Shown: piece after piece, positions 36,577-49,799 of the stretch
Numbering within the stretch: the first letter of the stretch is position 1
Layout of the letters: each line of letters starts with the position of its first letter
Assembly (NCBI GenBank): GCA_038141355.1
Contig: JAYQHX010000002.1
Location: 1,214,478 to 1,278,477, forward strand
Origin: Methanobacteriota archaeon
GTDB lineage: Archaea > Thermoplasmatota > Poseidoniia > Poseidoniales > Poseidoniaceae
Direction: 5' to 3'
Length of the DNA stretch: 64,000 nucleotides
Made by a program: the position numbers and the translations under genes
Notes under the pieces: generated by a model
The model's input: only the letters and a program-made list of their open reading frames with translations
The model's database searches: none
What the model was told of the DNA's origin: nothing

Positions 36577-37971
36577 TTATTGTACTCTAGCAATTACCTT
36601 CATCTCAACAGCGATTGGAGTAGGCAATGCACTAATTGCTAATGTCGTGCGAGTGGGTCCTACTTTGCCTAGCGTTTCAGCCCAAACCTCATTGTACCCT
36701 GAGAAATCTCTATCCATATCAACCAAGAAAGATGTCACATCGATGACATTATCGATTGAAGACCCTGCTTCTTCTAATATTCTAGAAATATTTTGGATTA
36801 CGGCATGGGTTTGGGCTTTGATATCATATTCTAGTGGTTTTCCATTAGCATCTTTGATTGGTCCACCTGGTATTGAATTATCACCTGGCTGTCTTGGACC
36901 AACACCTGAAAGATAAATCAAATCACCTTCACGACGAGCATGAGGATAGGCACCCACTGGTTTTGGTGCTTTTTCAGAATTTACTGAATTTTTGGATTCA
37001 ACAGGATCATACAGTTCTGGCCCACTGTTGATACTATTATTTTCTGAGTCGTTATCTGAGTCGAGTACGTCTCTATCTCCTCCGTAGAACTCAACATCAT
37101 CCTCATCATATTCCTTATCTCCTGTTCCATTGGATTCAGGATCTAAAACTACAACAGCGGCTCCTGCACCATGAATTGCCTCGTAAGCTAAAACATCACC
37201 ACTCAAGTCATTTCGATTACTGTTCATTGCTGATAACCACCACATTGGTTTGAATGCGACGACCTTCTTTACTCTAATTTGGTCTTGGATTGTACGGCTT
37301 AATTGACCAACATCCTCGAGCCTTCCTTTTCCTAAGAATTCGAGAATTTTTCTATTCCATTCATCGTCTTTCAAAGAGTGAATTCGATCTTCATGAGGCT
37401 CGATTGGTTCAGTAAACATCCTGTTTGAAAGGGACATAACAGATACAGCAACCGCTTTCTTACCTTGAGATTTGATAACGTCAAGGCAGGATTTTGCGAG
37501 AACCGTGGTCTCTGCTCTATTTGAATAAACATTGCTTGAACAAATAACGGCAGGAATTCGATTGTCTGGATTCAATAATTGCAGAGCAACGACAGAACCG
37601 ACATCTATCGGGAACCCTTCATAGGCAACTGTTCGTGATTGCAAACCGCGAGAAATATTTGCATCATTCCAAGCATGCGCAAACTCACTATCGATGTTTA
37701 GTGAGTAATGGATACTGCCTAAATCGTGGAAATCCGCATCCACTAAAACCCATTTAGGATTAGGATCCGCCTGAATTTGGTGTCCAATGATACTAGGCCA
37801 AAGCGTTGAATAAATCACAATCAAATCAGCATCTGATTCTTCAATTTGCCTCTTTGCTTCATCGTAAGCATCTCTTATTCTCTGCCAACCTTCGTTTTTT
37901 TCAGGGCACAAAACAGGGTGAGGATGAGCCGGAACAATTAGCGATTTTACAATCTCTCCAGTCATAGTCAC
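36577..37971 (-). CDS. amnA: 2-aminophenol 1,6-dioxygenase alpha-subunit-like domain fused to a RidA/YjgF (2-aminomuconate deaminase-like) domain
   Basis: N-domain YSTLW, GFPIDVGS, SSNVY, EDRI..DDEWNR matches my recall of the LigB-like alpha subunit. C-domain PVGAYPHARR, LSGVGP, PTRTT, LPTPIAVEMKVIA is Rid-family. GTG start overlaps the amnB stop. Confidence 0.82.
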   Translation of the reverse strand: MTMTGEIVKSLIVPAHPHPVLCPEKNEGWQRIRDAYDEAKRQIEESDADLIVIYSTLWPSIIGHQIQADPNPKWVLVDADFHDLGSIHYSLNIDSEFAHAWNDANISRGLQSRTVAYEGFPIDVGSVVALQLLNPDNRIPAVICSSNVYSNRAETTVLAKSCLDVIKSQGKKAVAVSVMSLSNRMFTEPIEPHEDRIHSLKDDEWNRKILEFLGKGRLEDVGQLSRTIQDQIRVKKVVAFKPMWWLSAMNSNRNDLSGDVLAYEAIHGAGAAVVVLDPESNGTGDKEYDEDDVEFYGGDRDVLDSDNDSENNSINSGPELYDPVESKNSVNSEKAPKPVGAYPHARREGDLIYLSGVGPRQPGDNSIPGGPIKDANGKPLEYDIKAQTHAVIQNISRILEEAGSSIDNVIDVTSFLVDMDRDFSGYNEVWAETLGKVGPTRTTLAISALPTPIAVEMKVIARVQ

Positions 37972-38861
37972 TCACCCCATTCACTTACAGGCCACTCCAT
38001 AATCGCATTACCTGTTCCAATGATTGTCCCATAGCCATGCAATTTCGCTGGTTGGTTAGGAATTCCTAATGTAGATAACAACCATGTTAGAGCGCCACCA
38101 TCGGTCTCAGCAATCGCTTGTTCACAAAATTCTGGCATCTCGTCGATTATCTGTTGTGATTTCCCATTTCTCATCAATTCAATCATTCGCATATCCCAAA
38201 GATGCATTGCGTGGCTAGTGATATGTTCTTTACTCATGTCTTCAGGAGGGTTTGTTTCTGAAACAAAGTGCCTGTGAGATAAGGAATTGCTAGCTACTAG
38301 TAAGCACTTCTTACCGCTTGCCTCAATCGCCTTCGCGGTCGATTTTCCAAGTTCGAGCATCATTTCTTGCATTACTTCAACCGAATAATAATGCATACCT
38401 CTGTTAGAAGATAATGCAACGATTGGTTTATCCCATTCAGGACGAATCATGTGGCAGGAAACAATTGTCCCATAATCTACTCTGAAATCAGGATTTTCCA
38501 TCATTTTGACAGCCAGACCGTCTGATTTAGCCTGGTCATGAATTGATTTAGCCAATTCAACATCGACTGTCAAGTCATAGTTGTATCTGAAAAGGTTGGG
38601 AAAAATAGGGTCCACGCTTTTGGATTGAAATTTTTCAATACCAAGGAAATGAGTTCCAATGTAGGTTTGCCAATGTGGAGACATTATCACAATAACATCA
38701 TAATCGATGTCTTTAATTGATTCTCGCAATCTTTCATAGCCCCATCTCAATTGCTCCCAACCACCTTCTGAAGTTGGCTCATTTTGGGTAGGATTCTCTG
38801 CATAAACGAGGTGCGGAGGATGTGGAGCGAGACATGCTGCTACAATGCTACCTTTCGCCAT
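37968..38861 (-). CDS. amnB: 2-aminophenol 1,6-dioxygenase beta (catalytic) subunit
   Basis: APHPPHLVYAENP.QNEP, GGWEQLRWGYER, SPHW, SVDPIFPNLFRY, FRVDYGT, SLSH, AE, YGTIIGTGNAIMEW are near-identical to my recall of AmnB/CnbCb, with Fe-ligand His/His/Glu retained. Start placed at MAKGSIV. Confidence 0.92.
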   Translation of the reverse strand: MAKGSIVAACLAPHPPHLVYAENPTQNEPTSEGGWEQLRWGYERLRESIKDIDYDVIVIMSPHWQTYIGTHFLGIEKFQSKSVDPIFPNLFRYNYDLTVDVELAKSIHDQAKSDGLAVKMMENPDFRVDYGTIVSCHMIRPEWDKPIVALSSNRGMHYYSVEVMQEMMLELGKSTAKAIEASGKKCLLVASNSLSHRHFVSETNPPEDMSKEHITSHAMHLWDMRMIELMRNGKSQQIIDEMPEFCEQAIAETDGGALTWLLSTLGIPNQPAKLHGYGTIIGTGNAIMEWPVSEWGE

Positions 38862-38916
38862 GAGACTGCGACAAGGTTCCGCACCTTCTATCATTCGCTT
38901 CCTCGTGGCGGTGAAC

Positions 38917-39324
38917 ATGGGGGACAAAACAGACCTCAAATTCCGGCATGTATTGTGGCCAACATTGTTAGCTGTAGTCTTAATTTCAATTTGTGCAGCA
39001 ACATTGGAAATTCACAGATTTCCTCCGATGATATTGTGCCTTGTGGTGGCGGTTCTTTTCGCACCATTATTAGCCAAATTAACCAATGCCGGTGAAATGA
39101 AAGAACACGCTATTGGAGTGGCATTGGTTTGCATACCGATGGCAGTTGTTTGGTCACTTGGTTCAAATTACTTCAATATCGCAATTCCGTTTATGGCTTG
39201 GGTTTGGCAATCAGCTTCTTGGTCCAAATCAAATCAACCTCCGATAAAATACGGGGTTTGGCACGGATTTGGCATAGCGTTTGCGATAATACCTGGCGCT
39301 ATGCTGTACGAGGCCCTATTCTAG
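38917..39324 (+). CDS. Small hypothetical membrane protein (~4 TM)
   Basis: GGTGA SD-like site before ATG 38917; hydrophobic throughout. Confidence 0.6.
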
Positions 39325-40947: not shown

Positions 40948-42324
40948 TCAGTTCTTTACACAAATATTGCTAAACTCGGAAAAAAAGTCTACTGACCATT
41001 GTCCGCCTTCTCTACCTACTCCGGAATTTTTGACTCCTCCAAACGGCGTACGTAAGTCACGATGAAGCCAGGTATTGACCCAAATTACTCCAGATTCGAT
41101 TTGTTTTGCAACGTCAAATCCCCTACTTTTTGACCATACGCTACCGGACAAACCATACTCTGTGCAGTTAGCAATTTCAATCGCTTCACTATCAGTATTG
41201 AAACGGTGAACTGTGACTACAGGTCCAAAAATTTCTTCGGTTGCAGTTCGGGATTCATGGGAAATATTTGTGATAACCGTTGGCTGAATCCATGCTCCAT
41301 CCCTGTCTATGATATTCCCTCCATACAATATTTCACCCCCTTCTTGTTTTGCCAGTTTTATGTATGAATGCACCTTGTCTCTATGCTGTTTATTGATTAC
41401 TGGACCGATTTCAAATTCTTGTAATCCTTCCAAGTATTCCTTCATGAATTGTTCATAAATTGAGTCATGTACTAAAACCCTAGAACCACACAAACATATC
41501 TGTCCTGAATTTAGGAAAGAGGACCTGATTACACCTGGAACAGCGATTTCTAAATCAGCATCATCAAGTACTATGGCTGCATTCTTACCACCTAATTCTA
41601 GGCTTAATTTCTTAAACATTGGAGCTGCAGTTGCTGCGACTATTTTCCCTGTTGCCGTGCCGCCAGTAAAGGATATTGCCTTGATTTTTGGGTGTTCAAC
41701 AATTGCCTGTCCGACTTCTGGTCCGTATCCATGCACAATATTCAAAACGCCTTCTGGGAGACCAATTTGAATAGAAATTTTCGCCAAAAAGAATGCAGTT
41801 AATGGTGTCAACTCACTCGGTTTAGCGATTACAGTGTTTCCCATCAATAGAGCAGGTGCTATTTTCCAAGAAAGAAGGTATAGAGGTAAATTCCAAGGGG
41901 AGATTAGACCGACAATACCAACTGGTTTTCTCACTACCAAATTTGTCGCATCGCTCATGTCAAACCTTTTTTCTTCAATTCCTTTACCAAATTCTGCAAA
42001 AAATCTGAAATTGTAAACTGAGCGATTAGCATCGACATTGAGCGCAACCTCGTGAGGTTTTCCAGTATCAAGACTTTCAAGTCTAGCGATCTCTTCGATT
42101 TCTTCTTCTAAGGCATCGGCGATTTTTTCCAACCAAATACACCTTTCTTCAATACTGAGATTTGACCAGGTGGGTAGAGCTTTTTCCGCTGCCATTACCG
42201 CATCTTCTACTGATTTTGTCCGAGGTATACTTGCAATAATACTATCATCTAAAGGAGAAATGTCGTCGAATGTTTCTTCAGTTCTTACAAAACAACCTCC
42301 GACCAGATTCTGGACTTCAATCAT
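40948..42324 (-). CDS. Aldehyde dehydrogenase, 2-aminomuconate/2-hydroxymuconate semialdehyde dehydrogenase (AmnC/ALDH8-like)
   Basis: PWNLPLYLLSWKIAPAL, FTGGT, SLELGGKN, GQICLCGSR, EEIFGPV, RDLRTPFGG. Confidence 0.88.
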   Translation of the reverse strand: MIEVQNLVGGCFVRTEETFDDISPLDDSIIASIPRTKSVEDAVMAAEKALPTWSNLSIEERCIWLEKIADALEEEIEEIARLESLDTGKPHEVALNVDANRSVYNFRFFAEFGKGIEEKRFDMSDATNLVVRKPVGIVGLISPWNLPLYLLSWKIAPALLMGNTVIAKPSELTPLTAFFLAKISIQIGLPEGVLNIVHGYGPEVGQAIVEHPKIKAISFTGGTATGKIVAATAAPMFKKLSLELGGKNAAIVLDDADLEIAVPGVIRSSFLNSGQICLCGSRVLVHDSIYEQFMKEYLEGLQEFEIGPVINKQHRDKVHSYIKLAKQEGGEILYGGNIIDRDGAWIQPTVITNISHESRTATEEIFGPVVTVHRFNTDSEAIEIANCTEYGLSGSVWSKSRGFDVAKQIESGVIWVNTWLHRDLRTPFGGVKNSGVGREGGQWSVDFFSEFSNICVKN

Positions 42325-43436
42325 AAGTCCACCTCATACAGCCATCTATCCTTGTCTGGGTCCCATTCATCCCATGTTGGTATCGTCTTCAGAACTTCAT
42401 GTAGGTTAGATGGAACAATTCCTGGTACTATGAACGCTTTTTGACGATGGAGAGGGTAAGGATTCCTCAGTTCAATACCTAAGCATCCCAAAATGGCTCT
42501 CGCAAGATACCAAGTGGCCTGAGAATTCCAGCCGTGTGCGATTTTCACCACAATTCCTAGTCCGTTTGGATAATCAGGATGTTCAACGGCTAGACCAAGC
42601 AGTCCATCAGCGCCTTCTTTGGCAATTACTTTCCCATTACCAATTTTCAATATAGTCGAGTCTAATCTATTGAATCCGCCTACTAGATCAGGATGTTTGC
42701 ACATTGCTTCCCAAATCCAGTCTGAATCCTTGTCTCGGACCAGACCAGCATAAATCTTGGCTAATTCAGCCACAGTATTGGATACTGTAGGTAATCCACA
42801 TCCATCTTTTGCGATTCTGAGTGGACTCCAATCTTCTCCCAAAAAGCGCCTAAGTTGTGCAATATAGGCCTTGAATACCTCATGAGTTGGTAGAGTATAA
42901 CCTGCCCTATTCCAACCTTTTGCTCTGCATCCGGCAAGTATTGCTGCGTGTTCACCACTACATGTGTGATACCATCTTCTTGGCCTCCTTACCTGCCTAC
43001 CAAATTGGACTAATGGCACGTCAAGAGGAGTCAACATCAGAGGCCATTCGGCTTCATTTAGCAATGATTGGGCTGCTGCAACGTGCTCTGTATCGCCATT
43101 GTGACTTGCAACAGCGATAGCCTTCTGCTCCCAAGAGCAATGATTCAATTCATCGGTGAATGCTTTCAACATGAATGGCTTCATCATTGAACGACCATAA
43201 CACAAAACATTGCCGCCAAAAGAATGGATTACTTCATCGCCGTGACACCATGCTACTGCGCCGTGAATCGTAGTTTCTGAAACACCATTTCTTCGATAAT
43301 CGACAAGTGGTTCCCATTCAACATCTCTGCCGGTAGGAATTCCTTCGATATCCTCTCCCAAGGGAGAATTTGGGAATACTTCAGAACCAGGTCTTCCCGG
43401 TGCTACCGCTGAATTTCCATCGTGATTTAATCCCAC
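42321..43436 (-). CDS. L-asparaginase II (class 3, Rhizobium-type) family amidohydrolase
   Basis: RSMMKP, ASHNG, TCSGEH, DGCGLP, AKEGADG; stop overlaps the ALDH start. Confidence 0.82.
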   Translation of the reverse strand: MGLNHDGNSAVAPGRPGSEVFPNSPLGEDIEGIPTGRDVEWEPLVDYRRNGVSETTIHGAVAWCHGDEVIHSFGGNVLCYGRSMMKPFMLKAFTDELNHCSWEQKAIAVASHNGDTEHVAAAQSLLNEAEWPLMLTPLDVPLVQFGRQVRRPRRWYHTCSGEHAAILAGCRAKGWNRAGYTLPTHEVFKAYIAQLRRFLGEDWSPLRIAKDGCGLPTVSNTVAELAKIYAGLVRDKDSDWIWEAMCKHPDLVGGFNRLDSTILKIGNGKVIAKEGADGLLGLAVEHPDYPNGLGIVVKIAHGWNSQATWYLARAILGCLGIELRNPYPLHRQKAFIVPGIVPSNLHEVLKTIPTWDEWDPDKDRWLYEVDL

Positions 43437-43438
43437 AT

Positions 43439-44653
43439 TCAGACCTCCAAAAGGGGTACAACTTCATTCCACCAAGCTTCCATGTTGCGAATTACACGTT
43501 CATTGTCATGATTAAAGAAATCAAACCAGCACATTAGCCTATCATCTGGATGGAATCTTTCCCTAACCTGATTTGCGACTTCTTGTGGATTTCCAATAAG
43601 TGCATTATTGGCTGCTTTTTCGACTTTTGTGGGATCGAGTGTACCCTCCAATGCCTTCCAATACTCACCAAGAGCAAGTCTTGCTTCTTCCTTAGCGGCA
43701 GCAGATTGTTCATCTGGTGAGAGGCCATCCTCGGCATTCAAGAAAACGAATGTTGTTCTAGGCATATCTCTCCTCTGCCAATCACCACCATCACTATGGA
43801 ACACCTGTTTCATTCTTTCATGAGTTGAATCAATGATTTCAGGAGAGGTTATTGACAGATTGAAAACCTTCACTGGTAAGAACTGATTTACAAATTCCTG
43901 TGCTCTAGGGTCGTGGGTTCCAGCCACTAATTCTAATCTGTCTCGTGGCCAGTCCTTTGGTACAGTTGAAATTTCTTCAAATTCATATCTTCTTGAGATT
44001 TCTATATGCTCCGAATCTTTACCTGCTGCAGATTGAACAGAAAGCCAATCCTCATCTGTTCTGAAATTGTCTCGCGTCAATACAGTTTCCCTAATATCGT
44101 TAGAATGAATTGTGTCACCTCGAAGTAACTCGAAGGAATATTTCACTTGCTTCCATGAAAATTTGTCCACGTAAAGCAGGCCATGCCGCTTTTTCGATTT
44201 CATTTCTTGGAACTATGCCATATGGCTTTGCCATGAATTCGAATCTACCTGCACTGAATCCGACATGCAATTTTCTATTATCATCAAAAAAGAGAGGTAT
44301 TGAACTGTATTCGCAATCCTCTCTGCAAGAGCCACAGGCCCTCCTCCAGCGAGAATACTTACAACTGCTGAACCTACATCAATATTGGAAGTTCGCCTAA
44401 ATGATTCCAATGCGAGTTGACAAAAATCAGTACAAAGACCTACTTCTCCTTTCCAATGGGGAACCACAGGATTACTGTTCAATTGTTGAGTCACTGTAGA
44501 AAGATGTGATTGTGCAATCCATGCAACTCCGAAACCGAGTCTATCCGCCGCTTCTAATTGAGAAAAATAATTTGAGAACATTTCTGTTTCACTTGGCGTG
44601 AAGCCATTGTGGTCTGGAGTTTGAGAAATCGAGAAGAAAATGTCAAACTCCAT
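43439..44653 (-). CDS. Luciferase-like (LLM) flavin-dependent monooxygenase (compensating -1/+1 indels; ~404 aa)
   Basis: AADRLGF..AWIAQSH, GSAV, P..LAERI, LHVGFSAGRF (alternate frame ~44135-44290), LIGNPQEV. The two ORFs are in the same frame and are bridged by an open alternate frame. Confidence 0.82.
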
Positions 44654-45506: not shown

Positions 45507-46292
45507 TTAGATTGAACGTAATCTACCGCCATCAACAGCAAGCGAAACTCCTCGAATTGCTCCAGAAATTGGCATGCAGAGATAAGTGATTGCAGCAGCT
45601 GTTTCAAGTGGATCTATCAATCTACCAATTGGTACTTGGGAAATCCAACCATCGTGGATTTCATCTATACTTTTCCCAGTTCTGGCATTGATGGAATTAG
45701 CTAGTGATTCTAGCCTGTCCGTATCAGTAAATCCAGGTAAGACGTTGTTAATCGTAATACATTTTGGTAATTCACTGGAGAGCGATTTTGCCCAAGAGGC
45801 CATTGCTCCTCGGAGAGTATTAGATAAACCGATATTTGGAATTGGTTCTTTCACCGAAGTTGAAATAATGTTTACGATTCTGCCCATACCAGATTTTTCC
45901 ATCAAGGGTACAACACCTTTGGTTAATTGATGTGAAGCATGTAAATGACGCTTGAAAGGTGTGAGGAAATCTTCAGTGGAATTATCGAGAAGTGGACCGC
46001 CTGGAGGACCTGCTGCATTGTTGATAAGTATGTCACAATTTTCAATTGAAGAAATAAAATTACCAATTGCTTTTTCATCTTCTAAATCGAGGCTTATTTC
46101 ACTGTGTCCCTCTCCTTCAAAAGAGTTTGAAACACCATTTGGATTCCGACTTATTGCAGTCACTTTTGCTCCTGCCTTTGCCAGCATTTGTGCTGTAGCT
46201 TTCCCTATTCCTTTTGATGCTCCACACACAATTGCATGCTTGCCATCTAGTGCATTTATCGCAAATGGAAAGTCGTTTCCTAGCCAGTCCAT
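45507..46292 (-). CDS. SDR family oxidoreductase
   Basis: CGASKGIG, INNAAGP, RIVNIIST, SNTLR in place of YxxxK, NNVLPG, VDGG. Confidence 0.9.
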   Translation of the reverse strand: MDWLGNDFPFAINALDGKHAIVCGASKGIGKATAQMLAKAGAKVTAISRNPNGVSNSFEGEGHSEISLDLEDEKAIGNFISSIENCDILINNAAGPPGGPLLDNSTEDFLTPFKRHLHASHQLTKGVVPLMEKSGMGRIVNIISTSVKEPIPNIGLSNTLRGAMASWAKSLSSELPKCITINNVLPGFTDTDRLESLANSINARTGKSIDEIHDGWISQVPIGRLIDPLETAAAITYLCMPISGAIRGVSLAVDGGRLRSI

Positions 46293-46315
46293 GCATAGCC
46301 TAGATGAGTGATACA

Positions 46316-46323
46316 TTTGAACC
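46316..46323 (-). promoter_or_regulatory. Candidate core promoter element GGTTCAAA preceded by GTGAA
   Basis: 31 nt upstream of the SDR ATG at 46292. Confidence 0.5.
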
Positions 46324-46324
46324 T

Positions 46325-47080
46325 TCACAGCCAATCTTTGATGGCCTCTATCTGCGATAACCAATCATCACTTGCTACATCGATAATCGAATAGTGGTCA
46401 CCTGGCAACCATAATTTTTGGACCGATACTCCTTTCGCATTCATAGCCCGAACATATGATTCGGATTGAGTCCAAGGAACATCTGCGTCAGATTTTCCGT
46501 GGATTACCAAAACCGATGTCTTGGCAGGCATATCAATTGGATTAATACTTCTCCAAATCGATTCGTTTTCCTCAGGTGGGCAACCAATCCATCTTCTGAC
46601 AGCATCACCTTCGTCGGACAATTTAGCATGGTCGGCAGCAACCAGGTCACTTATCGGTGATTGTGCAATTGCAAGCCATGGTTTTCTTTCTGCTACAGCC
46701 GACATTAGCAAGGCTAAGTGGCCACCAGCGGAGTGGCCCATAATCATCGATCGTACAATATCTATTCCAGGAAGTAAAGCAAGTTGCCCCCAAGCTCGCA
46801 TGATATCTGAAAGTGTATCTTGCCAAACACCTTCGTCTCCATCTTCCCATCTCTTGTATTCAACATTCCAGGCTGCAATTCCGTTATCGGCCAATTCTTC
46901 TGCGATTGGAGCCATCAATTCCAAACCGTATTTTTTCTTCCAAAATCCGCCATGAATTAGCATTATACAAGGTATGCCTTCGTCTTTTTGAAAATCAGAT
47001 GGCTCATCTGGCATGTACAAATCTGCAAATTGCCATTCCTCTGCACCCCACTGCATGCGGTCTACTGACAATTTGATCAA
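46325..47080 (-). CDS. Alpha/beta hydrolase (HSL/arylformamidase-like)
   Basis: LIHGGFW oxyanion loop, GHSAGGH nucleophile elbow, HGKSDADVP, GDH. Confidence 0.85.
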   Translation of the reverse strand: MIKLSVDRMQWGAEEWQFADLYMPDEPSDFQKDEGIPCIMLIHGGFWKKKYGLELMAPIAEELADNGIAAWNVEYKRWEDGDEGVWQDTLSDIMRAWGQLALLPGIDIVRSMIMGHSAGGHLALLMSAVAERKPWLAIAQSPISDLVAADHAKLSDEGDAVRRWIGCPPEENESIWRSINPIDMPAKTSVLVIHGKSDADVPWTQSESYVRAMNAKGVSVQKLWLPGDHYSIIDVASDDWLSQIEAIKDWL

Positions 47081-47081
47081 C

Positions 47082-48487
47082 TCAAGGAGTGACTCGGCTT
47101 CTATCTCTCGGGAATAGAACTGTTTCTCTTACATTTCTAGAACCAGTCAGGACCATCAACAATCTAGCCACACCTAATCCCCAACCAGCGTGAGGAGGCG
47201 CTCCATATCGGAAACCATCGGTATAGAAAGTGAACCCTTCAGGGTCAAGACCTTTGTTTCGCAGATTTTGTTCGAGAATATCCACATTATGTTCTCTCTG
47301 GCCACCGCTTGTCATTTCGTCCCTACCATAATTTAGGTCAAAACCTCTGGACAACTGTTCGCCTGTTGTTCCAACCTCGCCTTCAACGTGGTGTATGTAG
47401 AATGGTTTCATCTCCATTGGCCACCTTGGTATGAAATGGAAACCAGGGTATTGCGCAGCAATAATATCACAGTGGGAGGAATCAATATCATCTCCCCAAG
47501 AAATTTCTTCACCTGCATCCTGAATCATTTTGATTGCATCACAGTATGAAATTCTTGGAAAAGGTAAACTTGGCACATCCACGGAAATAGGTTCGTCGCC
47601 TTGAGATTCACGGTATCTATTAATCGCTTCAACCTGTTCTTGGTCGTGTTCTGCTACCATTTTCCAAATGTGGTGAATCATTCTTTCTTGGACTCCCATC
47701 ACGTCTTCATCACTCATCCAAGCACCTTCAATATCGAAAGAAATGAATTCGTTCAAATGTCTGTACGTGTCGTGTTTTTCAGCTCTGAATGCTGGACCTA
47801 TCTCAAAACTCTTTCCATTCCACCAAGAACTGTAAGTTGCTTGTACAGTTGTGGGCTTTGTGATAAAAAGGCAGGAGTGTCAAAATACATCATTGGGAAA
47901 AGATTAGTTCCACCTTCTGATGCTGAAGCAATAATTTTTGGAGAATTGATTTCTTTGAATCCTTCTGTAATCAGATGCTCTCTCCCATATTGCAGTACCC
48001 TTGCTCGCAATGTAAACATTGCATTTACGTGCTCTCTTCTTAGGTCTAGGAACCTATTGTCTAATCTGGTATCCAAACCGATTGACACCGTATCGGTGAC
48101 GCCCAATGGCAATGGAGTATTTGCTTTTGATAATATTTGAACTTCTTTGCTACTACCTCGTATGACGGGGGGTACTGGTTCACCTTCAGGTACCTTAGGA
48201 GGTCTCTTTTCTGCGACTTCTCCTACGACTTGAATGGTTGATTCTCTGGACAGTGTTTGAGCAGTATCCAATTCTTCATCAGATACCATTCCTTCTTTCA
48301 AGAATACCTGAACTTTGCCTGTACCGTCTCTGATATCGATGAAACAAATTTTTCCTTTTCCTCTGTTTGCTTCCATAAATCCACAGATAGTGACATCTCT
48401 GCCGACAAGTTGTCCTCCATTGTTTTGTATTTCACCAAGAGTATGCGTTCTGTAGGCTGTCGGATGCCATGTGATATCATTCGCCAT
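47082..48487 (-). CDS. aspS: Aspartate--tRNA ligase, archaeal type (-1 indel at ~47805; probable hidden +1/-1 pair at ~48147-48172)
   Basis: OB fold FIDIRDG, RLDNRFLDLR, LSQSPQLYKQ, FRAEKHDTYRHLNEF (after frame repair), SGGQREH, GAPPHAGWGLG. Confidence 0.94.
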
Positions 48488-48571
48488 GTTTGAGGGCGGT
48501 AGTATTTACAAAATGAACTCATCGCTGGTGAAAACACAGTCTTGATAGATGATTAATTGTGGCGCTTTATC

Positions 48572-49799
48572 ATGGGACAAGACCTATTCACATCAGAAAG
48601 TGTGGCATCCGGTCATCCCGACAAGTTGTGCGATGCCATCAGTGATGCAATTGTTGATGCTTGTCTGTCCATCGATTCAAACGCTAGAGTTGCAGTTGAA
48701 ACCAGTGTAAAAGGAGGAGAAGAAAAAGGAATCATTCTTCTTGCTGGAGAAGTGACTCTGAATGGTGATCACCCAAATTATGAATCAATAGCAAGAGAAA
48801 CTGCGAATATGATTGGATACAACGACCATTCAATCGGTTTTGATGCGACCACTGCTAATCGATGTGAAGTTATTCAAAAAATCACAGAGCAGGCTGCAAA
48901 CATAAGTCAGGGAGTTAACAATACTGAACAAGGTGCTGGAGACCAAGGGTTGATGTTTGGATACGCATGTAATGAAACTGAATCATATGAAGAATTACGA
49001 GGGCGATATTTCCCTCGCAGCCGCATTATCTCAAAGATTAACAAGAAGAATGACTAATGCAAGAAATGATGGTACTCTTCCTTGGGCAAGACCTGATGCT
49101 AAGAGTCAAGTCACCGTAGAATACGAAAACGGAAAGCCTGTCAGAGTGCATACTGTTGTCATTGCAATTCAGCATGACGCCGCCTTAAAGGATAGGTTTG
49201 ATGGTGATGAGTCAAAGGAGCGAGATTACATTACTTCTGAAATTAGAAAGCACGTTGTTGAGCACGCAATTCCCGCATCCCTCATTCGAGAAGGCTACAG
49301 ATTAGTGGTCAATGGAACTGGCAGATTTGCCGACCCTGGAGGGCCATATGCAGATGCTGGTTTGACAGGTAGGAAAATCATTGTCGACACATATGGTGGA
49401 ATGGGTAGACACGGCGGTGGTGCTTTTTCAGGAAAAGACCCTTCGAAGGTTGACCGGTCTGCTGCATACGCTGCAAGATGGGCTGCTAAACATGTTGTAG
49501 CATCAGGGCTTGCAGATAGATGTGAGATACAATTGGCATACGTAATCGGAGTTGCAGAACCGGTTAGCATTAGGGCTGAATCCTTTGGTACGTCGCAAAT
49601 CACTGATTCTGAATTAACTACTAAAGTCAAAGAGATTTTTGATTTTACACCAAAATCAATCGCTTCTGATTTGGATTTGCTGAGACCGATTTATTCTACA
49701 ACTGCAGCAGGTGGTCATTTTGGGAGAACTCCAAATGTAGACGGGGCATTCCCTTGGGAACAACTTGATGAAAACAAAATTCAACAATTAAATTCATAA
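48572..49799 (+). CDS. metK: S-adenosylmethionine synthetase, bacterial/eukaryotic type (indel at ~49012)
   Basis: [63 protein letters not shown]. Confidence 0.95.

What the first reader, a model, noticed from the sequence alone, without database searches (positions are those of the whole stretch)
42321..43436. Class-3 asparaginase homologue with a changed metal-site motif
Seen: the Ser-Lys tandems are retained (RSMMKP, ASH, AKEG), but CSGKH is CSGEH. Known: in Rhizobium etli class-3 asparaginase the Lys of NCSGKH is a Zn ligand together with two Cys. Inference: altered metal site and substrate, perhaps an aryl-amide or ring-cleavage-product amidase coupled to the ALDH it overlaps.
Basis: partly seen in the sequence, partly recalled or inferred. 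Interest (0 to 1): 0.55.

Follow-up and report, generated by a model that had tools for sequence, protein, structure and literature searches.

The report
Asparaginase-like hydrolase of a tryptophan-breakdown operon
This marine archaeal gene has the fold of the Rhizobium-type asparaginases but a rebuilt metal site, and it always sits beside a flavin oxygenase and 2-aminophenol ring-opening genes. It therefore most likely splits an aspartyl-aminophenol intermediate of an undescribed tryptophan breakdown route rather than asparagine.

Summary
Window 42321-43436 (minus strand) encodes a 371-aa PF06089 protein. It keeps both Ser-Lys tandems, Arg47, His139, Tyr156 and Asp187 (ReAV numbering), but has Glu where ReAV and ReAIV have the zinc ligand Lys138.

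The change is a clade signature, not a one-off.
- All 121 closest database homologues and all 160 fetched loci read CSGEH.
- Gln54, the water-mediated partner of Lys138, is replaced at the same time (Met here).
- In a sister archaeal family, orthologues in the same operon have replaced the whole triad, Cys/Glu/Cys to Ser/Gln/Asp.

Characterised class-3 asparaginases keep Cys/Lys/Cys and lie in permease-asparaginase-aspartase contexts. This clade lies directly after a divergent luciferase-like monooxygenase. In compact operons the order is tryptophan dioxygenase, SDR, monooxygenase, this gene, AmnC-like ALDH, AmnB, AmnA, RidA. Three database proteins fuse AmnA to this hydrolase.

Best reading (about 0.55): a beta-aspartyl-2-aminophenol hydrolase that releases aspartate and 2-aminophenol after oxygenation of kynurenine. 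Nothing has been tested biochemically.

"Coupled to the ALDH" is only adjacency.

Earlier notes of this scan reached the same pathway idea on other DNA. I used them as leads. I found no paper describing the pathway.

The parts
42321..43436 (-). Class-3-asparaginase-fold hydrolase, 371 aa (P0001), Cys/Glu/Cys form
   Evidence: PF06089 at E 9.8e-49. ReAIV and ReAV are the best PDB sequence matches. AF2 model has pLDDT 91 and pTM 0.90, and the only good Foldseek matches are ReAV/ReAIV, TM 0.67-0.77.
42948..42962 (-). CSGEH motif: Cys159, Glu162 (= ReAV Lys138), His163
   Evidence: Translation, alignment to 7os3 and 8cly, column table.
43170..43193 (-). RSMMKPFM: Arg82 (= Arg47, alpha-carboxylate anchor), Ser83 (= Ser48, nucleophile), Lys86 (= Lys51), Met89 (= Gln54 in Lys-type enzymes)
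   Evidence: Residue roles are from PMC12292245 and PMC12951835.
42798..42806 (-). DGC: Asp211 (= Asp187) and Cys213 (= Cys189, second Cys of the metal site)
43439..44653 (-). Divergent luciferase-like monooxygenase, the obligate upstream partner. In this window it is interrupted by an in-frame TAG at 44213-44215.
   Evidence: Weak PF00296 match. Its TGA stop lies 2 nt before the hydrolase start. TAG at codon 147. It is present or absent together with the hydrolase across 151 genomes.
40948..42324 (-). AmnC/XylG-like aldehyde dehydrogenase with an ATGA overlap onto the hydrolase stop
   Evidence: PF00171. Best NCBIfam match is 2-hydroxymuconic semialdehyde dehydrogenase, below its cut-off. Overlap shown.
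37968..38939 (-). AmnB-like LigB-family dioxygenase subunit
   Evidence: PF02900 at E 1.3e-23. Syntenic in archaeal and bacterial loci.
36577..37971 (-). AmnA-like subunit fused to a RidA-type deaminase
   Evidence: PF02900 plus PF01042. In P0272-P0274 the AmnA domain is fused to the hydrolase instead.
45507..46364 (-). SDR that travels with the operon
   Evidence: PF13561/PF00106. It lies between tryptophan dioxygenase and the monooxygenase in f3 and near them in L081.
46325..47080 (-). Alpha/beta hydrolase, a candidate formamidase of the MGIIa form of the cluster
   Evidence: PF20434/PF00326. Not found with this query in four f3 genomes, which carry other hydrolase and formyltransferase-like genes in the operon.

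Best explanation
The gene encodes a serine amidohydrolase of the class-3 asparaginase fold. It is a pathway-specific enzyme, not a housekeeping asparaginase. Ser83, activated by Lys86 with Ser111 and Lys273, attacks the gamma-carbonyl of a beta-aspartyl compound. Arg82 and the remodelled site Cys159/Glu162/Cys213 hold the alpha-amino-acid head.

The proposed substrate comes from the adjacent luciferase-like flavin monooxygenase acting on kynurenine. A Baeyer-Villiger insertion next to the aryl ketone would give the 2-aminophenyl ester of aspartate. That ester may shift to N4-(2-hydroxyphenyl)-asparagine. Hydrolysis gives L-aspartate and 2-aminophenol. AmnBA, the AmnC-like ALDH and RidA then degrade the 2-aminophenol.

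Shown: the fold, the retained catalytic residues, the changed triad, the linkage to the monooxygenase and Amn genes, the operons headed by tryptophan dioxygenase, and the AmnA fusions.

Inferred: the substrate, the oxygenase chemistry, and what Glu162 does. Glu162 could be a metal ligand, a direct partner of the substrate ammonium, or a helper for the aryl leaving group.
For: 1. Catalytic and head-binding residues are kept (Arg47, Ser48, Lys51, Ser80, His139, Tyr156, Asp187, Lys263). The metal triad is Cys/Glu/Cys and Gln54 is lost.
2. In ReAV the metal and Arg47 bind the alpha-amino and alpha-carboxy groups of L-Asn, and Ser48 is the nucleophile (PMC12951835, PMC12292245). The retained geometry therefore suits an aspartyl head.
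3. Of 151 Poseidoniia genomes, 138 have the gene and 140 the monooxygenase. Nine lack both, including genomes 91-97% complete. At least three of the six discordant cases have the monooxygenase cut at a contig end.
4. Compact operons run tryptophan dioxygenase, SDR, monooxygenase, hydrolase, ALDH, AmnB, AmnA, RidA in five loci of a second archaeal family and in a 65% GC bacterial contig.
5. Three distinct proteins fuse AmnA to this hydrolase, each with a different linker.
6. G000 has tryptophan dioxygenase, but no kynureninase, KynB-type formamidase or 3-hydroxyanthranilate dioxygenase was found.
7. G000 has PF00710 and PF01112 genes as other possible asparaginases.
8. Lys-type relatives lie in permease-asparaginase-aspartase contexts.
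Against: - There is no biochemical evidence for any step.
- The monooxygenase is so divergent that its chemistry is a guess (PF00296 E 1.5e-10; best PDB sequence match E 0.086).
- The metal site that binds the substrate head in ReAV is exactly what has changed, so the head itself may differ.
- Orthologues with Ser/Gln/Asp show that the Cys pair is dispensable, which leaves the role of Glu162 open.
- In this window the monooxygenase gene carries an in-frame TAG. Other genes here are also split, so assembly error is likely.
- G000 is only 80% complete, so absences are weak evidence.
Confidence: 0.55

Rival explanations
1. It is an ordinary L-asparaginase (Asn to Asp plus ammonia) that uses Glu instead of Lys as the third metal ligand.
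For: Both Ser-Lys tandems, Arg47, His139, Tyr156, Asp187 and both Cys are kept. ReAV K138A still has partial activity (PMC11024299). Databases name the homologues asparaginase.
Against: It is strictly linked to the monooxygenase and aminophenol genes and never seen with a permease-aspartase pair. The genome has two other asparaginase-family genes. Orthologues lose both Cys, although C135A and C189A abolish ReAV activity. The clade is separate from the characterised enzymes on the tree.
Confidence: 0.12
2. It is the formamidase of the pathway and removes the formyl group from N-formylkynurenine or from a formylated later intermediate.
For: The operons start with tryptophan dioxygenase, so a deformylation step is needed. 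No KynB-type cyclase was found in five genomes, and the MGIIa alpha/beta hydrolase is missing from four f3 genomes. The bacterial contig L081 shows no obvious formamidase in the cluster.
Against: MGIIa clusters carry a separate alpha/beta hydrolase. The f3 operon carries another alpha/beta hydrolase and a formyltransferase-like gene. The deformylation step therefore seems to be filled by varying enzymes, while this gene is constant. Its constant neighbour is the monooxygenase, not the dioxygenase. The retained Arg47 and Ser48 spacing fits a carbonyl two carbons from C-alpha, not the distant formamide.
Confidence: 0.12
3. It hydrolyses some other amide linked to the downstream ALDH, such as a ring-cleavage product or an unrelated aryl amide.
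For: ATGA overlap with the ALDH. The hydrolase-ALDH adjacency holds in nearly all loci.
Against: The known 2-aminophenol pathway has no amide intermediate, and the RidA domain already covers the deamination. The natural fusions are to AmnA, not the ALDH. The one apparent hydrolase-ALDH fusion (G084) is an artefact of a run of N.
Confidence: 0.08

Closest known systems
Class 3 L-asparaginases ReAV and ReAIV of Rhizobium etli (PF06089; PDB 7os3, 8cly, 9g66)
   Same: Same fold (TM 0.67-0.77). Same two Ser-Lys tandems, Arg47, His139, Tyr156, Asp187 and both Cys. The dimer-contact Glu17 is also kept.
   Different: About 22-26% identity. Lys138 is Glu and Gln54 is Met. There are clade-specific N- and C-terminal tails. 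The context is a tryptophan/aminophenol operon, not permease-asparaginase-aspartase. Orthologues can lose the whole Cys/Lys/Cys site.
4-Hydroxyacetophenone pathway of Pseudomonas fluorescens ACB (Baeyer-Villiger monooxygenase HAPMO followed by an aryl-ester hydrolase). Cited from my own knowledge, not checked here.
   Same: Same proposed logic: an aryl ketone is oxygenated to an aryl ester, which a hydrolase splits into a phenol and an acid before ring cleavage.
   Different: Both enzymes belong to different families. The substrate here would be an amino acid (kynurenine), and the products aspartate and 2-aminophenol. Nothing is demonstrated.
2-Aminophenol meta-cleavage clusters (amnBACD type)
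   Same: AmnB, AmnA, an AmnC-like ALDH and a RidA-type deaminase are present and syntenic.
   Different: By my recollection and the first readers' notes, not checked here, known amn clusters contain no PF06089 hydrolase, luciferase-like monooxygenase or tryptophan dioxygenase. Here they form one operon.
Glycosylasparaginase and isoaspartyl peptidases (class 2, Ntn asparaginase family). Cited from my own knowledge.
   Same: A precedent that an asparaginase family can diversify to hydrolyse N4- or beta-substituted aspartyl compounds.
   Different: Unrelated fold and mechanism.

Membership tests
Class 3 L-asparaginase (PF06089, ReAV/ReAIV type) | Two-domain glutaminase/beta-lactamase-like fold of ReAV | tested here: met
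   PF06089 at E 9.8e-49. AF2 pLDDT 91. Foldseek top hits are only ReAV/ReAIV, probability 1.0, TM 0.67-0.77.
Class 3 L-asparaginase (PF06089, ReAV/ReAIV type) | Ser48-Lys51 and Ser80-Lys263 tandems | tested here: met
   Ser83/Lys86 and Ser111/Lys273 align to them and are invariant in alignment A1.
Class 3 L-asparaginase (PF06089, ReAV/ReAIV type) | Arg47, His139, Tyr156, Asp187 (99% conserved in ReAV orthologues per PMC11024299) | tested here: met
   All present in P0001 and in all 160 loci.
Class 3 L-asparaginase (PF06089, ReAV/ReAIV type) | Zinc site Cys135/Lys138/Cys189 | tested here: not met
   The site is Cys/Glu/Cys here and Ser/Gln/Asp in f3 orthologues. Whether any metal binds cannot be tested here.
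Class 3 L-asparaginase (PF06089, ReAV/ReAIV type) | Gln54 paired with Lys138 through waters | tested here: not met
   Met89 here. Gln is present in 49/49 Lys-type representatives and in only 1 of the non-Lys forms sampled.
Class 3 L-asparaginase (PF06089, ReAV/ReAIV type) | L-asparagine hydrolysis | not testable with these tools
   Needs an enzyme assay.
Class 3 L-asparaginase (PF06089, ReAV/ReAIV type) | Asparagine-catabolic context (permease, aspartase) | tested here: not met
   R. etli and Deinococcus Lys-type genes have that context. This clade does not.
Baeyer-Villiger oxygenase plus aryl-ester/amide hydrolase pair | Oxygenase and hydrolase genes adjacent and co-inherited | tested here: met
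   Adjacent in all loci with enough flank. Joint presence or absence across 151 genomes.
Baeyer-Villiger oxygenase plus aryl-ester/amide hydrolase pair | The oxygenase performs a Baeyer-Villiger reaction on the aryl ketone | not testable with these tools
   Only a weak luciferase-like match.
2-Aminophenol meta-cleavage (amn) cluster | AmnB, AmnA, AmnC-like ALDH and RidA-type deaminase present together | tested here: met
   A PF06089 gene is an addition to the published gene set.

The most novel reading that the evidence does not exclude
Together with the adjacent flavin monooxygenase, this hydrolase replaces kynureninase. Kynurenine would be oxygenated to an aspartyl-aminophenol conjugate and split into aspartate and 2-aminophenol. 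That would define an undescribed tryptophan catabolic route that is nearly universal in Marine Group II/III archaea and shared by transfer with several bacterial groups. The enzyme would also have freed itself from the zinc anchor of its asparaginase ancestors (Cys/Glu/Cys, then Ser/Gln/Asp).
Probability: 0.5. Interest if true: 0.8.

Novelty: new variant of a known kind. Interest (0 to 1): 0.62.

Why it matters
Class-3 asparaginases are studied almost only as asparagine-hydrolysing enzymes and drug candidates. The zinc site is treated as a hallmark, with Lys138 97% conserved. This clade shows that the fold has been recruited to another job and that the hallmark site is evolvable.

If the proposed reaction is right, it gives a natural role to 2-aminophenol ring-cleavage enzymes, which are known mainly from pollutant degraders. 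It also explains how very abundant ocean archaea that have tryptophan dioxygenase but no kynureninase use tryptophan. And it supplies a simple motif rule (position 138 not Lys, position 54 not Gln) to keep these genes from being annotated as asparaginases.

Tried and rejected
I could not fetch contexts for the more distant Glu, Asn, Gln and His forms (P0123-P0166) or for the fusion proteins.
2. The single genome-contig scan and the single metagenome-contig scan returned almost only Poseidoniales loci. Only L081 is clearly bacterial.
3. Two loci with bacterial NCBI labels (L036, L063) belong to 1.8-2.0 Mb genomes with archaeal synteny, so they gave no bacterial handle.
4. A plasmid search found only Lys-type relatives at 32% identity or less.
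5. The apparent 832-aa hydrolase-ALDH fusion in G084 is a scaffold gap of N. The 844-aa open frame in G124 is two abutting genes.
6. No monooxygenase-hydrolase fusion was found among longer proteins.
7. The AF2 tool returns no coordinates, so the Cys-Glu-Cys geometry could not be measured.
8. Literature searches for the pathway, for Poseidoniales plus kynurenine, and for PF06089 subfamilies found nothing relevant.
9. I rejected a non-catalytic scaffold reading, because every catalytic residue is invariant.
Full report
**Observation.** The minus-strand ORF 42321-43436 begins at a GTG that has GGAGGT 5 nt upstream. It lies 2 nt after the TGA of the upstream gene and encodes 371 aa. Its stop overlaps the start of the next gene (ATGA). 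It matches Pfam PF06089 at E 9.8e-49 and matches no NCBIfam model.

phmmer against PDB sequences finds only the Rhizobium etli class-3 asparaginases: ReAIV 8cly at E 7.7e-17 and ReAV 7os3 at E 1.4e-15. The printed alignments put the Glu of CSGEH opposite Lys138 of NCSGKH. RSMMKP, ASHNG, DGCGLP and AKEGADG are in register with the ReAV blocks. Motif coordinates were checked by translation.

**Organism and spread.** The window lies in a Poseidoniales (Marine Group II) genome of 2.46 Mb that is 80% complete. PF06089 was found in 138 of 151 sampled genomes of the class, and in 61 of 65 high-quality ones.

The protein is unusually conserved. The 120 best database homologues are 73-90% identical. 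They include entries named Poseidoniaceae, Myxococcota, Alphaproteobacteria and Deltaproteobacteria. Some sit on contigs of up to 6.9 Mb, too large for these archaea. Between the window and the bacterial contig L081 it is the most conserved protein of the gene set. It is 76% identical, against 52-63% for its neighbours.

**Is CSGEH common?**
- All 121 close sequences read CSGEH.
- All 160 fetched loci are identical at twelve key positions, R S K M S C E H Y D C K. These are 80 species representatives and 80 metagenome contigs.
- An exhaustive search of 50%-identity cluster representatives shows a mixture at 39-54% identity: CSGEH, CSGNH, CSGQH, SSGNH, SSGHH and CSGKH. Further out it is almost only CSGKH.
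- Using an R. etli plasmid homologue whose numbering matches ReAV, I tabulated the active-site columns. Arg47, Ser48, Lys51, Ser80, His139, Tyr156, Asp187 and Lys263 are kept throughout.
- Position 54 co-varies with 138. It is Gln in 49 of 49 Lys-type sequences and Met, Leu, Thr, His, Tyr or Ala in the others, with one exception. The ReAV paper describes Lys138 as linked to Gln54 through two waters.
- That paper gives 97% conservation for Lys138 among ReAV orthologues. K138A keeps about 1% of kcat, while C135A and C189A are dead.
- A third characterised enzyme, from Paenibacillus thiaminolyticus, is reported to have the same zinc-binding residues as ReAV.
- I therefore found no characterised asparaginase with CSGEH.

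**A second state of the site.** In a sister family of the class (f3 in the tool's labels), 15 of 15 sampled orthologues from three genera read Ser135, Gln138 and Asp189. All other key residues are unchanged. They are 71-74% identical to P0001 and lie in the same operon. Ten of ten sampled f2 genomes read Cys/Glu/Cys.

On a maximum-likelihood tree, the Cys/Glu/Cys forms of archaea and bacteria, with the Ser/Gln/Asp forms nested inside, make one tight short-branched clade (SH-aLRT 99). A weakly supported wider group adds other non-Lys forms (Ser/Asn/Asp, Ser/His/Asp). Some Glu forms fall elsewhere among Lys forms in poorly resolved parts of the tree. The zinc site is thus in flux in this clade, and the two Cys are not needed for whatever the operon's enzyme does.

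The clade also has its own conserved N-terminal stretch (about residues 1-40) and C-terminal stretch (TWDEWDPD.DR). It has many private residues as well, for example Met84 next to the nucleophile and Asn220.

**Structure.** An AlphaFold2 model built from 71 sequences has mean pLDDT 91 and pTM 0.90. Confidence is low only in the two tails. Foldseek against the PDB returns ReAV and ReAIV chains only (probability 1.0, TM 0.67-0.77). Next come beta-lactamases and glutaminases at E of about 1e-3. The tool gives no coordinates, so the geometry around Glu162 could not be measured.

**Context.**
- In the window the minus-strand run is alpha/beta hydrolase, SDR, TPR protein, luciferase-like monooxygenase, this gene, AmnC/XylG-like ALDH, LON-N protein, panB, AmnB, AmnA::RidA, permease.
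- The monooxygenase-hydrolase-ALDH trio is kept in essentially all 160 loci.
- In five f3 loci with GC from 36 to 67% the set is compact: tryptophan 2,3-dioxygenase, SDR, monooxygenase, hydrolase, ALDH, AmnB, AmnA, RidA. In L162, the one f3 locus whose extra ORFs I scanned with Pfam, an alpha/beta hydrolase lies between the ALDH and AmnB and a formyltransferase-like gene follows RidA.
- The 65% GC contig L081 has bacterial-looking neighbours (imelysin, di-haem oxidoreductase, HTTM). It carries tryptophan dioxygenase, Rieske, SDR, pirin, monooxygenase, hydrolase, ALDH, AmnB, AmnA::RidA.
- Across the same 151 genomes the monooxygenase is found in 140 and tryptophan dioxygenase in 140.
- Nine genomes lack both monooxygenase and hydrolase. 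These include G003 (97% complete), G006 (96%), G009 (94%) and G013 (91%).
- Four genomes have the monooxygenase but no hydrolase. In three of them (G053, G077, G087) the monooxygenase is cut at a contig end, so the hydrolase is probably just unassembled. G021 could not be checked.
- Two genomes (G058, G066) have the hydrolase but no monooxygenase hit. These genomes are related to one another, so this is a pattern, not a statistic.
- Lys-type relatives look different. R. etli has permease, asparaginase, aspartate ammonia-lyase. Deinococcus has transporter, asparaginase.

**Fusions.** A search among longer proteins found three distinct proteins of 719-736 aa with a LigB domain followed by PF06089. 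The N-terminal half of P0273 is 51% identical to the AmnA part of the window's AmnA::RidA and only 25% identical to AmnB. The three linkers differ. The hydrolase halves keep the clade's N-terminal stretch, CSGEH, DGC and the WDEWDP tail. AmnA is therefore fused in some lineages to RidA, which would act two steps after the dioxygenase, and in others to this hydrolase. That fits a hydrolase acting just before the dioxygenase.

**Rest of the genome.** G000 has tryptophan dioxygenase about 760 kb away. No kynureninase was found. No KynB-type cyclase and no 3-hydroxyanthranilate dioxygenase above cut-off were found in G000 or in four f3 genomes. G000 has a PF00710 gene and a PF01112 gene, so other asparaginase candidates exist. 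G000 is 80% complete, so these absences are only suggestive.

**Mechanism proposed.** The side chain of kynurenine is aryl-CO-CH2-CH(NH2)-COOH. Its ketone carbon corresponds to the amide carbon of asparagine. Oxygen insertion between ring and carbonyl would give the 2-aminophenyl ester of aspartate. From general chemistry, that ester can shift its acyl group to the neighbouring amine and become an N4-aryl-asparagine. Either compound is an asparagine analogue with a larger leaving group.

In ReAV, Arg47 and the metal hold the alpha-carboxy and alpha-amino groups, and Ser48 attacks the amide (PMC12951835, PMC12292245). Those elements are kept here, apart from the metal ligands. A rotamer of Lys138 can reach Ser48 O-gamma and Gln54. 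Positions 138 and 54 are therefore close to the reaction centre, and their joint change is consistent with a different leaving group or a different way of holding the ammonium group. In both states of the site one carboxylate is present: Glu138 in Cys/Glu/Cys and Asp189 in Ser/Gln/Asp. This last part is inference.

The idea of a kynurenine Baeyer-Villiger step came to me from earlier notes of this scan. I used them as leads. What I tested myself is the linkage, the operons, the fusions, the residue patterns and the missing classical enzymes. The monooxygenase is too divergent to assign its chemistry.

**Rivals.**
- An ordinary asparaginase is not excluded, but it fits the context and the loss of both Cys in orthologues poorly.
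- A formamidase role is weakened because the operons carry varying hydrolase or formyltransferase-like genes that could fill it.
- An amidase tied to the ALDH has no obvious substrate. The only apparent hydrolase-ALDH fusion is a scaffold gap.

**Novelty.** Searches of the paper library found no description of this pathway or of non-Lys subfamilies of PF06089. The scan itself has flagged the same gene set on other DNA several times.

**Verdict.** This is a new functional variant of the class-3 asparaginase fold, and its substrate is still a prediction.

Noticed in passing
window 44213-44215 (within 43439-44653, minus strand): The luciferase-like monooxygenase gene is interrupted by an in-frame TAG at codon 147. 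In 144 other loci a single alignment spans the whole protein. Residues aligned to the stop vary (R/E/G/A), which suggests a locally garbled stretch.
   Followed up: partly
window 47082-48487 (minus strand) and 48557-49799 (plus strand): A class II Asp/Asn/Lys-type tRNA synthetase is split into two ORFs (229 and 224 aa). S-adenosylmethionine synthetase is split into two overlapping ORFs (166 and 280 aa). Several broken housekeeping genes in one window point to assembly or sequencing errors rather than real pseudogenes.
   Followed up: no
P0272, P0273, P0274 (database proteins, 719-736 aa): These are natural fusions of an AmnA-like dioxygenase subunit to the asparaginase-like hydrolase, with three different Pro/Gly-rich linkers. 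Their gene context could not be fetched.
   Followed up: partly
L162-L166 and L180-L189 (family f3 of the class): Orthologues in the same operon have Ser/Gln/Asp in place of the Cys/Glu/Cys site. In L162, RidA is a separate gene rather than fused to AmnA.
   Followed up: yes
window 43317-43436 and 42324-42386 (residues 1-40 and 351-371 of P0001): The N- and C-terminal tails are specific to this clade and well conserved (PGRPGS...SPLGE...GIPTGR and TWDEWDPD.DRW). They are predicted with low confidence. They may be docking peptides for partner enzymes.
   Followed up: no
L036 and L063 (genomes G002, G001): Contigs labelled Rhodobiaceae and Salipiger bermudensis at NCBI carry the archaeal form of the cluster and belong to 1.8-2.0 Mb assemblies. 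They are probably mislabelled or contaminated bins.
   Followed up: partly
L191 (G084:C4:127300-130700): An apparent 832-aa open frame joining the hydrolase and the ALDH is caused by a run of N in the scaffold, not by a gene fusion.
   Followed up: yes
L162:2345-3061 and L162:5305-6273: The f3 operon also holds a formyltransferase-like gene (PF00551) and an Abhydrolase_1 gene. These are candidates for removing the formyl group of N-formylkynurenine, and they differ from the hydrolase used in the window's own cluster.
   Followed up: no
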